Source of the DNA: a virus
Taxonomy: Duplodnaviria; Heunggongvirae; Uroviricota; Caudoviricetes
IMG/VR virus record: IMGVR_UViG_3300045988_013781
Length of the DNA: 31,645 bases
Direction: 5' to 3' (one strand)
Part shown: positions 1 to 3,000 of the stretch, in pieces
How the letters are laid out: every line of letters starts with the position of its first letter
Position numbering within the stretch: the first letter of the stretch is position 1
Made by a program: the position numbers

Positions 1-3000
1 CGGTGCCCCCACACAGCCCACCATAGAATAGGTGCGCTTTACACATAAAAAAACCGCTTATGCGGCATATGTGCCTCTGTAGTAATCCGGGAGACCAATC
101 CCGGCACTGGCAAAATCCAGTGCCCGATTACTATGGCACAAGAGGAGTGCGATGTAAATTTACCGCAAAGGTAATAATAGACACAGGTGGATATTAAAAT
201 CAACCATATTTGGTTAATGCGTGTAAAAGAGCCAGCAGCGAGAAATTGTGCCGCGACGTAAAATAACGAGCATCTGCTGGCTTACAACCAGCGATGTTTC
301 AAATTTGTCACTACTATCAACGTGCCATTCCACGGCGCAGAACTTTATGTTGTCAATCACAACGGCGAACCGTACACCCCAATGAAACCTATCGTTGAGG
401 GAATGGGTCTAGACTGGAAATCTCAACATAAGAAGATTTCTCAACGCTTCTCGAAGGGTATGGTGGAAATCACCATACCTTCTGCCGGTGGGGTGCAAGC
501 CATGATTTGTATGGCTTTACGAAAATGAAGCAGTGGTTTAAAACCTGCATTGTGAAAATCACAATGCAGCTTCCTGGGGATGAACAGCGCCGTGAGATTA
601 TTTGTTTGGCACTTCGCAAACTTGCAGGTTAGCTGCAAACCATCAGCCCAATGAATCCTATCGCTTGCATGTAGTCACCTATTTATTTTTTAGCTTTTCA
701 TCCATAGCAAATTTCGTTGCTAAACTTTCACCATCTGATTTAAGCCTTCCAATAAATTTCCGCTTACCGTCTTGAGAGGAATTTAAATAGTATATATTTG
801 ATTCAGCAATCTTTTGTATGTACGACTCGCATGACACAACCGAAGCTTTGGATATAGAATCAACACTTTCTCCTGTCTTAGCGTATTTTACGGCCTGCCC
901 TTTTATACATCCAAAATATTCCATTGTATGCTTTTTAGAATCCTCCAGTGTTTCCCCATTTTTAGGCTGAATCATTAACGGTGAGGTAGTATCTGCAAAA
1001 GATTTTACAACTAAAAGCATAAGAATAATCATTAATATAATTCTGTTCATATTACTTCCCTAGCATGAACTGCGATGGTGGAATCAGAAATTCGTTACCC
1101 TGCTCACGCTCAACACGGCGCTGATAACGCTCAAGAGAGCCAGGGTCAAGGGCATCTTGTATCCGGTTCAATATTAAACCATTCATCGCCGTACGAAGCC
1201 AGAACACGTTGAGGAATGGCGTATTGTCAAGTGCCGTGCGATACCAGTCACCCAAATCTGCATCCCCTCTCGTGGTCTGCTGGAGCAGCGTGATAATGCT
1301 GTCAGCGTTCGATGCTGCCGGCCCCATTAGCGACGTAACCGGCCCGGCCCCCATGCGGTTGACCTCGCCAAACATGAAGTCACCCAAGATGCCAAGACCG
1401 CCCCCCTGAGATGCGGCTGCGAGAAACGTCTTGGCATCTGCCGGGCGCGGTGTTTGCCCTTTCAGCATGAGTTTTGACTGCATGGAGATATAACCAAACA
1501 TAGTCGCCCAGACAAAGAGGTTTGCAGCACCAAGGAAAGCCCCCTTCCCGTTACGCAGCAGCGCATTCGTCAGCGATCCGGTTTTCGACTCACCAAGCCC
1601 AGCAGGAATATAACCACGCCCGAATACTTCGCGTCCTAGTACGTTCTGCATGAAGCTTGCAGTGAACGATTTGTACTGACCAGCGAATCGTATTGCTTCC
1701 CCAGCCACCGTTCCTGGCACCGTGCCCATCTTCATAAACGCCTGCGTGCGATCGCCAGGCTCTGACATGGCGATATTCAGGCGGTCAAGGATGTAGCCGC
1801 GCAACTGCCCTTCCAATTGATCGCGTGCGTCAGCGATAGCGCGCTGCGTTGGCTTGATCCCCTTACTCTCTACATAACCGGCAATCACTTCGTCAGGCAC
1901 GCCGCGGATGCCGCTGGTCGTCATGAACTTACGACCTTCGCTATCGGCCATGTCCATGTTGCGAAAAATTTCCCACTCACGTTCGCCAATACCGTGCAGA
2001 TCCAGCACGCGTCGCAGGTCTTCCGGTAGCCGCGCATGAGGCTGGTCAGCATTCTTTGCAAGCCAGTTGGTTATCATCATGGCGTTACTGTTGCGACCGC
2101 TCTCGGTCCAGAAGTTCATGAGGTTGTACTTAAAGAAAAGCTGCTGCGCGCGACCAAGTTTTCCATTCAGCGTGTCATCACCAGATATGCGCCGGATGAT
2201 TTCCTGCGTCATGGAGTCGGAATAAACTCCGATAGAGGAAAGGATCTCTTTCTGCTCCGCGCTGTTGTAACGCGTGAAGCGGCCTCTCATAGCACCAAGC
2301 AACGCCTGCATAAAATTCTGCCCTTGGTAGCGCATCTCGGTAGCGGCGATAGGCACGTCGTTAAACGATGAGATTACCGCGCCACCAAGCTGGCTCATAC
2401 GCAACCAGCCGCGTACAGCCGCCGACGCATTGGCCCAGCCTACGCTGCCAGGAATATTTAGCGAGCCGTCAACCTGCGGCATTACGGTACGGTTAATGCG
2501 ACGCACCTTCGTCATGTAGTCAGCCAACGCTGCCGGTCTTCCGGATTTGCTGATATCTTCAGCAATGGTGTCCGTCAGGTACTTAAACATGTTCTGTGGG
2601 TTAGTGCCCAATACGCGCATCATGCCCGTTGTGCGGGCAGCGCTGTTTAAGCCACCAAACAGCGCCTCTCGCAGGCTGCCGGTGCCGAATTGCTGGTTGT
2701 ACTCGTGCCACGAGATACCATCTTTGAAGTGCAAAATTCGCTCTTGGCTGGCGCGTTTAGCTGCGTTCGCCGATCCCTTAAAGCCATTCATCCAATCGGG
2801 CTTTTCAGATGTAAGATGCACGCCGGAAGCCAGCCCGTTATAAATGTTACGCATGAACTGCTCGCGGTCAGCCACGCCGTCAAAAGTGCGCTCATCAAGG
2901 CGCGGGAGAATAGCATTTCGCCATGCTTCATAACCTGCGGCGCGGATCTTCATGATGTCGTGTGACTGGCGCACTATATAGCCCGGCTCTTTGCGTATCC

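What the first reader, a model, noticed from the sequence alone, without database searches (positions are those of the whole stretch)
679..1050. AT-rich secreted-protein moron at the distal end of the virion module
A 123-aa protein with a clear signal-peptide-like N-terminus (MNRIILMIILMLLVVKSFA) and two Cys is encoded immediately after the last internal virion protein gene. It is visibly more AT-rich than the structural genes. That position is where podoviral prophages commonly carry superinfection-exclusion or host-modifying cargo. No family recognised.
Basis: partly seen in the sequence, partly recalled or inferred. Interest (0 to 1): 0.5.

Follow-up and report, generated by a model that had tools for sequence, protein, structure and literature searches.

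The report
Secreted accessory protein after ejection-protein genes
This is a real, well-conserved but uncharacterised gene for a small protein exported to the periplasm. It sits in a swappable slot at the end of a prophage's DNA-ejection-protein operon, so it most likely helps block infection by rival phages, though that role is untested.

Summary
Window 679-1050 (-) encodes a 123-aa protein with a Sec-type signal peptide and two invariant Cys. It starts 1 nt after the stop of the 850-aa internal virion protein gene. Its GC is 33% against 55% in the neighbouring gene.

It is a real gene. The mature domain has dN/dS 0.05-0.10, and homologues occur in several Enterobacteriaceae genera. AlphaFold gives a confident small helical fold (pLDDT 93) that matches no PDB or viral structure. 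There is no Pfam, PHROG, NCBIfam or PADLOC hit.

New here:
- Remote homologues (24-47% identity) sit in the same slot in diverged prophages related to epsilon15 (Uetakevirus), Ab31 and BUCT708. Their divergence broadly follows that of the ejection proteins.
- The slot is also swapped precisely. Of 63 E. coli genomes with this core gene, 7 carry this gene and 56 carry an unrelated 186-aa secreted protein. Other lineages carry a Rap1a-like protein or small membrane proteins.
- Every occupant seen has a signal peptide or transmembrane helices.

The layout mirrors P22 gene 16 - sieA - immI - tailspike. Unlike sieA, the gene is co-oriented and tightly coupled to the late operon, with no detectable promoter of its own.

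Best guess (about 0.4): a periplasmic factor that blocks DNA delivery by incoming phages. Function is untested.

The parts
679..1050 (-). Complete CDS of the 123-aa secreted protein, including the TAG stop at 679-681. RefSeq calls it WP_021525792.1 'hypothetical protein' in E. coli PF9285.
   Evidence: Conservation and purifying selection.
994..1050 (-). Signal peptide, residues 1-19 (MNRIILMIILMLLVVKSFA). The predicted signal peptidase I site is SFA|D. This segment varies between homologues (dN/dS about 1), while the n/h/c layout and small -3/-1 residues are kept.
   Evidence: No SignalP was run, so the cleavage site is inferred from the -3/-1 rule.
682..993 (-). Mature domain, residues 20-123 (104 aa, 11.6 kDa, pI 8.8, hydrophilic). 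It is predicted to be all-alpha, with helices at full-length residues 35-56, 63-73, 76-84, 86-89 and 93-121. C48 and C74 are invariant and likely form a disulfide. Conserved motifs are Y-x-x-C-[IV]-K...K-Y-[SA]-K and A-M-D-E-K-L.
   Evidence: The disulfide is inferred from invariance and helix-hairpin geometry. It was not measured.
1051..1063 (-). Junction with the upstream gene, reading CTA GGG AAG TAA T on the minus strand. It holds the last codons and TAA stop (1052-1054) of the 850-aa gene, a purine-rich Shine-Dalgarno-like AGGGAAG (1055-1061) and a 1-nt spacer (1051) before the ATG. The junction is conserved in front of the gene that fills this slot in every prophage with this 848-850-aa core-gene type (gap 1-4 nt). 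In the more diverged core types the gap is 9-33 nt.
   Evidence: junction sequences of window, L002, L003, L005, L010, L022, L024; L011, L014, L017 for the longer gaps; gap 1 in 15 IMG/VR contigs.
1052..3604 (-). Upstream 850-aa internal virion (ejection/core) protein gene. It is the last of a gp14-like / SLT-protein / 565-aa / 850-aa series. It defines the slot and diverges roughly in parallel with the small protein.
629..670 (-). A 13-codon stub (MQAIGFIGLMVCS*) of the 98-aa, three-transmembrane-helix gene (phrog_3075). That gene follows the secreted-protein gene intact in many relatives. Homology to the intact gene ends at 648/649, so the partner gene is lost in this prophage.

Best explanation
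The gene encodes a small soluble periplasmic protein. It would be exported by Sec, have its 19-residue signal peptide cleaved, and fold into a compact helical domain of about 104 aa stapled by one disulfide (C48-C74).

It is the usual occupant of a swappable cargo slot at the distal end of the ejection-protein operon. The host phages are temperate podoviruses related to epsilon15, Ab31 and BUCT708. I propose that it acts in the periplasm to block DNA delivery by incoming phages of the same kind. It would do this by binding the trans-periplasmic conduit that the ejected core proteins build, or a periplasmic host component that conduit needs. In other words, it would be a superinfection-exclusion factor.

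It is probably made by read-through and translational coupling with the late operon. In that case exclusion would operate at least during lytic growth or induction. Any expression from the repressed prophage is undemonstrated.

Shown here: the gene is real, has export-signal features and a helical fold, sits in a conserved position, is swapped as a cassette, and diverges roughly with the core proteins. Inferred: signal-peptide cleavage, the disulfide, periplasmic location, the target and the exclusion phenotype.
For: - The position equals that of P22 sieA: last ejection-protein gene, then this slot, then the antirepressor/immI-like region, then the tailspike. PMC10883804 states that sieA always lies between genes 16 and 9, has three types less than 30% identical, and targets gp16/gp20.
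- Family members sit directly after the 824-974-aa core gene in all 17 IMG/VR contigs where the upstream gene could be read, out of 19. The same holds in Klebsiella, Salmonella, E. coli, K. oxytoca and BUCT708-like contigs.
- Identity of the small protein roughly follows identity of the 850-aa protein: 88/89, 80/89, 77/87, 40/27, 38/26, 36/27, 30/26 and 24/53.
- Every alternative occupant of the slot is envelope-targeted. These are a 186-aa signal-peptide protein, a Rap1a-family signal-peptide protein, 67-aa and 95-aa two-TM proteins, and a 98-aa three-TM protein.
- All family members carry a signal peptide or a lipobox.
- The mature domain is under strong purifying selection while the signal peptide evolves freely.
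- The kind of protein has a precedent. T4 Spackle is a 75-aa periplasmic helical bundle with one disulfide that excludes superinfecting phage (PMC7677548).
Against: - There is no sequence or fold similarity to SieA, Spackle or any known exclusion protein, and no PADLOC hit.
- No promoter of its own was detected, and the gene starts 1 nt after the late gene's stop. Expression in a lysogen is therefore doubtful. P22 sieA has its own promoter on the opposite strand.
- Parallel divergence may reflect physical linkage alone, and the K. oxytoca lineage does not follow the trend (24 vs 53%).
- One homologue, from Sodalis, lies next to a Rep3 replication gene and not in a virion module.
- No experiment bears on function.
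Confidence: 0.4

Rival explanations
1. It is a periplasmic immunity or inhibitor protein against a cell-wall-degrading enzyme. The target could be a type VI secretion effector or bacteriocin from competing bacteria, which would make it lysogen-protecting cargo. Alternatively the target could be the lytic transglycosylase (SLT) domain carried by incoming virions, which would make it Spackle-like.
For: - A bona fide Rap1a-family protein (PF18602, 48.8 bits against a cut-off of 27.7) with a signal peptide fills exactly the same slot in Leclercia, Klebsiella sp. and Samsonia prophages.
- Rap1a is the periplasmic immunity protein to the T6SS peptidoglycan endopeptidase Ssp1 (PMC3533786 and PMC3852654, listed).
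- The size, helical fold, signal peptide and Cys pair resemble T6SS immunity proteins and Spackle.
- This phage's core protein carries an SLT domain.
Against: - There is no profile similarity to the Rap1a-like slot proteins (hhalign probability 0.1).
- No effector gene lies nearby.
- The 102-aa and 101-aa subfamilies sit in phages whose core protein has no detectable SLT domain. This argues against an SLT-specific inhibitor.
Confidence: 0.2
2. It has a lytic-cycle function in the periplasm, made late together with virion proteins. Examples would be tuning lysis timing or spanin/endolysin action, or modifying the envelope so that progeny are not wasted on infected cells and debris.
For: - The gene is on the same strand as the late operon and starts 1-4 nt after its last gene in close relatives, with no promoter found.
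- Terminators follow the slot in relatives: L017 9410-9432, and L002 4717-4700 after the 98-aa gene. This makes it the distal gene of the late transcript.
Against: - A complete lysis cassette (two holins, an endolysin and a DUF2514 protein, which I read as a spanin-like component) lies elsewhere in relatives.
- The gene is dispensable. Unrelated genes replace it next to core genes that are 99% identical.
- Debris or progeny protection is itself a form of exclusion, so this rival overlaps with the best explanation.
Confidence: 0.15
3. It is a minor virion or ejected protein, and its hydrophobic N-terminus is a membrane-insertion segment, not an export signal.
For: - It lies inside the virion operon and is translationally coupled to the last internal protein gene.
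- Its position is conserved and it diverges with the core proteins.
Against: - The canonical n/h/c signal layout with small -3/-1 residues is kept across the family, and one member has a clean lipobox, LSAC.
- The Cys pair is invariant, which is typical of oxidative folding in the periplasm.
- It is interchangeable with a Rap1a-family periplasmic protein and other unrelated genes beside near-identical virion modules.
- It is absent from Ab31 and from the Uetakeviruses phiv142-3 and BUCT711.
- It has foreign base composition and is rich in rare codons.
- The Sodalis copy lies outside any virion module.
Confidence: 0.06

Closest known systems
P22 SieA (superinfection exclusion A; Leavitt et al. 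2024, PMC10883804)
   Same: It has the same genomic position: between the last ejection-protein gene and the immI/antirepressor region plus tailspike of a temperate podovirus. It is accessory, present in only some relatives. It occurs as deeply diverged sequence types that stay in one slot. It is envelope-located.
   Different: SieA is a 164-aa multi-pass inner-membrane protein on the opposite strand with its own promoter. This protein is a soluble secreted type with a single N-terminal signal, is co-oriented, and starts 1 nt after the late gene. There is no sequence similarity.
T4 Spackle (gp61.3; PMC7677548)
   Same: It is a small phage-encoded periplasmic protein with a cleaved export signal, a compact alpha-helical fold and a single disulfide. 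It is made during the lytic programme.
   Different: There is no detectable sequence or structural relationship. Spackle's target is the gp5 tail lysozyme of a myovirus, and no target is known here. Some subfamilies sit in phages that lack a detectable SLT domain.
Rap1a/Tai4-type T6SS immunity proteins (Pfam PF18602)
   Same: These are small helical periplasmic proteins with a signal peptide and conserved Cys. A true Rap1a homologue occupies the very same slot in sister prophages.
   Different: The 123-aa family has no Pfam hit and no profile-profile similarity. No cognate effector gene is adjacent.
Morons in the sense of Hendrix and colleagues (for example HK97 gp15); the definition is cited from my own knowledge
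   Same: It is present in some and absent from other closely related genomes. Its base composition deviates sharply. It is inserted between two conserved genes of a late operon.
   Different: No flanking promoter was detected. In this window the terminator that follows the cassette in relatives is missing, and the gene is translationally coupled to the preceding gene. The family is an old resident of the slot and not a sporadic insertion.

Membership tests
P22 SieA family | Multi-pass inner-membrane protein (several predicted TM helices) | tested here: not met
   There is only one hydrophobic segment, at residues 4-15. The maximum Kyte-Doolittle(11) value after residue 25 is 0.75, and mature-domain GRAVY is -0.71.
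P22 SieA family | Sequence similarity to SieA types A-C, including the FxRYPxEAxxFNK motif | tested here: not met
   BLASTP E 2.5 and hhalign probability 0.1 against P22 SieA. The motif is absent from the alignment. Only type A (P22) was compared.
P22 SieA family | Location between the last ejection-protein gene and the tailspike gene | tested here: met
P22 SieA family | Own promoter and expression from the prophage | tested here: inconclusive
   No sigma-70-like site with 9/12 or better lies upstream on its strand. One 8/12 site lies at -201. No transcript data are available.
P22 SieA family | Blocks DNA injection of related phages | not testable with these tools
   Needs plating and DNA-entry assays.
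T4 Spackle-like periplasmic lysozyme inhibitor | Cleavable export signal, small helical bundle, one disulfide | tested here: met
   Predicted only. Signal-peptide features. AlphaFold model pLDDT 92.8, all-alpha. Two invariant Cys.
T4 Spackle-like periplasmic lysozyme inhibitor | Sequence or fold similarity to Spackle | tested here: not met
T4 Spackle-like periplasmic lysozyme inhibitor | Binds and inhibits a virion-borne peptidoglycan hydrolase | not testable with these tools
   An SLT domain is present in this phage's 898-aa core protein. It is absent (no Pfam hit) in phages that carry the 102-aa and 101-aa subfamilies.
Rap1a/Tai4 T6SS immunity (PF18602) | Match to the Pfam model or to Rap1a-like homologues | tested here: not met
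   No PF18602 hit. hhalign against the Rap1a-like slot proteins gives probability 0.1.
Rap1a/Tai4 T6SS immunity (PF18602) | Adjacent cognate amidase effector gene | tested here: not met
   The neighbours are virion, antirepressor, toxin-antitoxin and tailspike genes.
Moron (independent transcription unit inserted in a phage operon) | Present or absent between otherwise near-identical phage genomes | tested here: met
   63 E. coli genomes share the core-gene 3' end. 7 carry this gene and 56 carry the 186-aa gene. The same kind of swap is seen between BUCT708 and L032.
Moron (independent transcription unit inserted in a phage operon) | Deviant base composition | tested here: met
   GC 0.333 vs 0.551 and GC3 0.29 vs 0.61. 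All family members are 31-40% GC against 49-56% in the upstream core gene. The plasmid-like Sodalis copy is 31% against 37% in its neighbour.
Moron (independent transcription unit inserted in a phage operon) | Own promoter upstream and terminator downstream | tested here: not met
   No promoter was found, and the start lies 1 nt after the preceding stop. Terminators follow the cassette in relatives but not in this window, where the downstream region is rearranged.
Internal virion / ejection proteins (T7 gp14-16-like) | Homology to a known virion-protein family | tested here: not met
   No Pfam or PHROG virion family matches. The neighbours do match: phrog_684, phrog_418 and phrog_308.

The most novel reading that the evidence does not exclude
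This would be a previously unrecognised family of periplasmic superinfection-exclusion proteins that has co-evolved with the T7-type ejectosome of temperate podoviruses. It would work by binding the trans-periplasmic DNA conduit directly, sometimes together with a 98-aa inner-membrane partner. It would sit in a dedicated hot-spot where phages exchange envelope-defence cargo, including T6SS immunity genes, precisely at the stop codon of the last ejection-protein gene.
Probability: 0.25. Interest if true: 0.6.

Novelty: new member of a known kind. Interest (0 to 1): 0.4.

Why it matters
If the protein does block DNA entry from the periplasm, it would be a soluble probe for the transient ejectosome that short-tailed phages assemble across the periplasm. 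That stage is poorly understood. It would also extend the known exclusion repertoire beyond membrane proteins such as SieA.

Whatever the exact function, the analysis defines a precise cassette-exchange slot. All nine kinds of occupant seen are exported or membrane proteins, and one is a T6SS-immunity homologue. This makes the slot a good place to mine for prophage-borne envelope defences in Enterobacteriaceae. As it stands, though, this is an uncharacterised small hypothetical protein of a familiar general kind.

Tried and rejected
- **Family and sequence searches.** Pfam, PHROGs, NCBIfam and PADLOC gave nothing for the 123-aa protein. tblastn of the 123-aa and 102-aa proteins against 50,697 phage records gave no match. 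The family profile against all PDB sequences gave only chance hits with E>0.8.
- **False positives.** Two top hits of the deep HMM search (P0023, P0034) are long repetitive proteins and were discarded.
- **Relatedness tests.** hhalign against the Rap1a-like slot proteins and against P22 SieA found no relationship.
- **Promoter search.** The search upstream of the gene found nothing convincing.
- **Genome sampling.** The scan of one genome per species returned only 6 loci with this core gene. The census of E. coli slot occupants therefore came from three BLAST searches. DNA of the 102-aa subfamily is absent from complete E. coli genomes.
- **Literature.** Searches found no description of this family or slot.
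- **Not possible.** I could not read model coordinates, so the C48-C74 distance was not measured.
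Full report
**1. The observation**

The minus-strand ORF at 679..1050 exists as described. It encodes 123 aa, starting with ATG at 1050 and ending with TAG at 679-681.

- **Signal peptide.** The N-terminus, MNRIILMIILMLLVVKSFA followed by D, has the layout of a Sec signal peptide. It has one basic residue, a 12-residue hydrophobic core (peak Kyte-Doolittle 3.75) and small residues at -3/-1. The rest of the protein is hydrophilic (mature GRAVY -0.71, pI 8.8, 11.6 kDa).
- **Position.** The gene begins 1 nt after the TAA stop of the 850-aa gene at 1052..3604, which matches phrog_684 'virion structural protein'. That gene is the last of a series: a T7 gp14-family protein, an SLT-domain protein of 898 aa, a 565-aa protein and the 850-aa protein.
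- **Composition.** GC is 0.333 (GC3 0.290), against 0.551 (GC3 0.612) in the neighbour. Only 0.7% of equal-sized windows in the 31.6-kb sequence are as AT-rich. ATA makes up 5 of 11 Ile codons.

**2. It is a real, selected gene**

A first search found 22 homologues at 61-98% identity in E. coli, Klebsiella, Salmonella, Enterobacter, Phytobacter and Sodalis. In the alignment the signal peptide varies freely, while the mature domain is nearly invariant, including both Cys. Nei-Gojobori estimates against the Klebsiella and Salmonella copies give dN/dS 0.05-0.10 for the mature domain at dS 0.7-0.9. The signal peptide gives values of about 0.3-2, on few sites.

**3. Fold and family**

AlphaFold gives an all-alpha model. 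The full-length model has pLDDT 87.5. The mature domain modelled with a broader alignment has pLDDT 92.8 and pTM 0.82. A long N-terminal helix carries C48. Short helices follow, with C74 at the junction between the second and third helices, and then a long C-terminal helix. The invariant Cys pair and the hairpin geometry suggest one disulfide. I could not measure the distance, so this is an inference.

An exhaustive HMM search of 1.8 billion representatives found about a dozen true remote relatives. They are roughly 90-190 aa long and all share the two Cys. Most carry a signal peptide, and one has a clean lipobox. Three were called without an N-terminal signal. I re-examined one of these, P0033, and its true start upstream gives a signal peptide. 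A profile search then added a 102-aa subfamily and a 110-aa subfamily. So a family exists, but it is unnamed.

**4. Context is the informative part**

In Klebsiella, Salmonella and E. coli the 123-aa gene always lies directly after the 848-850-aa core gene of the same prophage type. Downstream lie an antirepressor/BRO-N region, the tailspike and the lysis genes.

The remote subfamilies occupy the same slot in diverged relatives:
- the 102-aa form after an 824-aa core gene in Klebsiella and E. coli;
- a 145-aa form, miscalled as 101 aa, after an 825-aa gene;
- the 110-aa form between an 855-aa gene and the tailspike in K. oxytoca;
- a 117-aa form after a 974-aa gene in close relatives of phage BUCT708.

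In IMG/VR, 19 viral contigs carry the family. In all 17 where the upstream gene could be read, it is the large core gene, with a gap of 1-49 nt.

Identity of the small protein to the window copy broadly follows identity of the 850-aa protein. The pairs are 88/89, 80/89, 77/87, 40/27, 38/26, 36/27 and 30/26, with one outlier at 24/53. The only copy seen outside a virion module is the Sodalis one, next to a Rep3 gene on a 7-kb contig.

The isolated phages with the nearest core proteins (26-49% identity) are Ab31, BUCT708 and Uetakevirus members. None of the ones I inspected carries the family.

**5. The slot is also an exchange point**

Among 5,426 complete E. coli genomes, 63 carry the 3' end of this core gene. 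Of these, 7 have the 123-aa gene. The other 56 have an unrelated 186-aa gene, phrog_11983, with the signal peptide MKAIIFFVSILMSAFSFA. That gene sits next to core genes 99% identical to the window's.

Other prophages with a 90-94% identical core-gene end carry either a Rap1a-family protein with a signal peptide (PF18602, 48.8 bits against a cut-off of 27.7) or a 67-aa two-TM protein. BUCT708 has a 95-aa two-TM protein where its relative L032 has the family member, and the flanks are 84-89% identical. The Uetakeviruses phiv142-3 and BUCT711 carry only a 98-aa three-TM protein, phrog_3075.

Among prophages with this 848-850-aa core type, every occupant starts 1-4 nt after the core gene's stop, behind the same purine-rich sequence. 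Every occupant seen in any lineage has a signal peptide or TM helices.

The 98-aa membrane protein follows the secreted protein in 11 of the 19 IMG/VR contigs and in L002, L010 and L011-13. In the window only its first 7 codons survive, as a stub at 629-670. Homology breaks at 648/649, where a truncated antirepressor gene (322-528) has been joined on.

**6. Expression signals**

No sigma-70-like promoter lies upstream on the gene's strand. A relaxed scan finds one 8/12 match at -201. In relatives a strong terminator follows the slot: L017 9410-9432, and L002 4717-4700 after the 98-aa gene. The simplest reading is that the gene is the distal, translationally coupled gene of the late ejection-protein transcript. 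A weak internal promoter cannot be excluded.

**7. Comparison with known systems**

- **P22 SieA.** The layout is the same as in P22: genes 7, 20 and 16, then sieA, then immI (mnt, arc, ant, sar), then gene 9. PMC10883804 reports that sieA always lies between genes 16 and 9. It is present in only a third of P22-like phages, comes in three types that are about 25% identical, and blocks the gp16/gp20 conduit. However, SieA is a 164-aa multi-pass inner-membrane protein, and it is transcribed from its own promoter on the opposite strand. It shows no similarity to this family or to the 98-aa partner. This protein is therefore not a SieA.
- **T4 Spackle.** In protein type the closest analogue is T4 Spackle. 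It has a cleaved signal, a 75-aa helical bundle and one disulfide, is periplasmic, and inhibits the gp5 lysozyme (PMC7677548). No sequence or fold relationship was found.
- **Rap1a.** The Rap1a homologue in the same slot raises the idea of a peptidoglycan-hydrolase inhibitor. Two results count against it. Profile comparison is negative. The 102-aa and 101-aa subfamilies sit in phages whose core protein has no detectable SLT domain.

**8. Verdict**

High confidence (about 0.9): this is a genuine gene for an exported, small, helical, probably disulfide-bonded protein. It belongs to an unnamed family that is the habitual occupant of a cassette-exchange slot at the end of the ejection-protein operon of a group of temperate podoviruses.

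Moderate-to-low confidence (about 0.4): it interferes in the periplasm with DNA delivery by incoming related phages.

Rivals:
- an inhibitor or immunity protein against cell-wall hydrolases (0.2);
- another late periplasmic function (0.15);
- a minor virion protein (0.06).

Accessory status, foreign composition, a secreted product and a sieA-like position all hold. It is not an independent transcription unit as far as can be seen, and it is an old, position-conserved partner of the ejection-protein genes, not a sporadic insertion.

On novelty, it is a new, uncharacterised family of a known general kind. Interest is moderate.

Noticed in passing
window 47-123 (-): This stretch matches the Rfam isrK Hfq-binding sRNA (RF01394) at 56.8 bits, above the gathering score of 50. 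A weak c4-target hit overlaps it, and a terminator-like hairpin lies at 66-53. It sits just upstream of the BRO-N antirepressor gene seen in E. coli PF9285. This suggests an immI-type antisense-RNA and antirepressor control region like P22 sar/ant or P1 c4/ant.
   Followed up: partly
window 322-528 (+): This is a truncated antirepressor gene. Only the P22_AR_N domain remains (68 aa, 96.8% nt identity to CUS-3 ant). RefSeq annotates it as a pseudogene in PF9285. The region between it and orf123 is a rearrangement junction.
   Followed up: partly
window 629-670 (-): This is a 13-codon stub of a 98-aa, three-TM membrane protein gene (phrog_3075). The intact gene directly follows the secreted-protein gene in many relatives. 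It is the sole slot occupant in the Uetakeviruses phiv142-3 and BUCT711, so it may be a functional partner.
   Followed up: partly
window 17535-18682 (+): A tRNA-Arg(UCU) gene (17535-17611) is followed by a second AT-rich island (GC<0.40). The island holds a 282/306-aa ORF with a hydrophobic N-terminal part and a long, charged, apparently helical region (phrog_4780, no Pfam hit). The block is inserted antisense between the portal and terminase genes and looks like another cargo insertion.
   Followed up: partly
L023:7053-7409, L024:7053-7436, L025, L026, L027 (same slot in Leclercia, Klebsiella sp. and Samsonia prophages and a MAG labelled Bacillota): A signal-peptide protein of the Rap1a T6SS-immunity family (PF18602, E 1e-12) fills the slot. 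It may be a prophage-borne orphan immunity gene against peptidoglycan amidase effectors. L025 carries a further 108-aa signal-peptide ORF just downstream.
   Followed up: partly
L003:4457-5017 (-) and 55 other complete E. coli genomes: The commoner E. coli allele of the slot is an unrelated 186-aa secreted protein (WP_000643933.1, phrog_11983) of unknown function. Its first 21 nt resemble those of orf123.
   Followed up: partly
L021 (phage BUCT708) vs L032/L033: Phage BUCT708 is deposited as a Stenotrophomonas phage, yet the fetched 10.9-kb stretch is only about 49% GC. It is 84-89% nt identical to metagenome contigs that carry the family member. The host assignment looks odd for a high-GC genus.
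   Followed up: no
window 831-860 (+), inside orf123: A promoter-like site, ATGACA-18-TAGAAT (10/12), reads antisense to orf123. It is conserved in L002. It may be a spurious AT-rich match or an antisense transcript start.
   Followed up: no
L004 (Sodalis contig, 7.1 kb): This is the only family member found outside a virion module. It lies next to a Rep3 replication initiator, together with RecT and DUF3799 genes like those in the window's early region (27151-28850). The contig may be a plasmid or a phage-plasmid.
   Followed up: no
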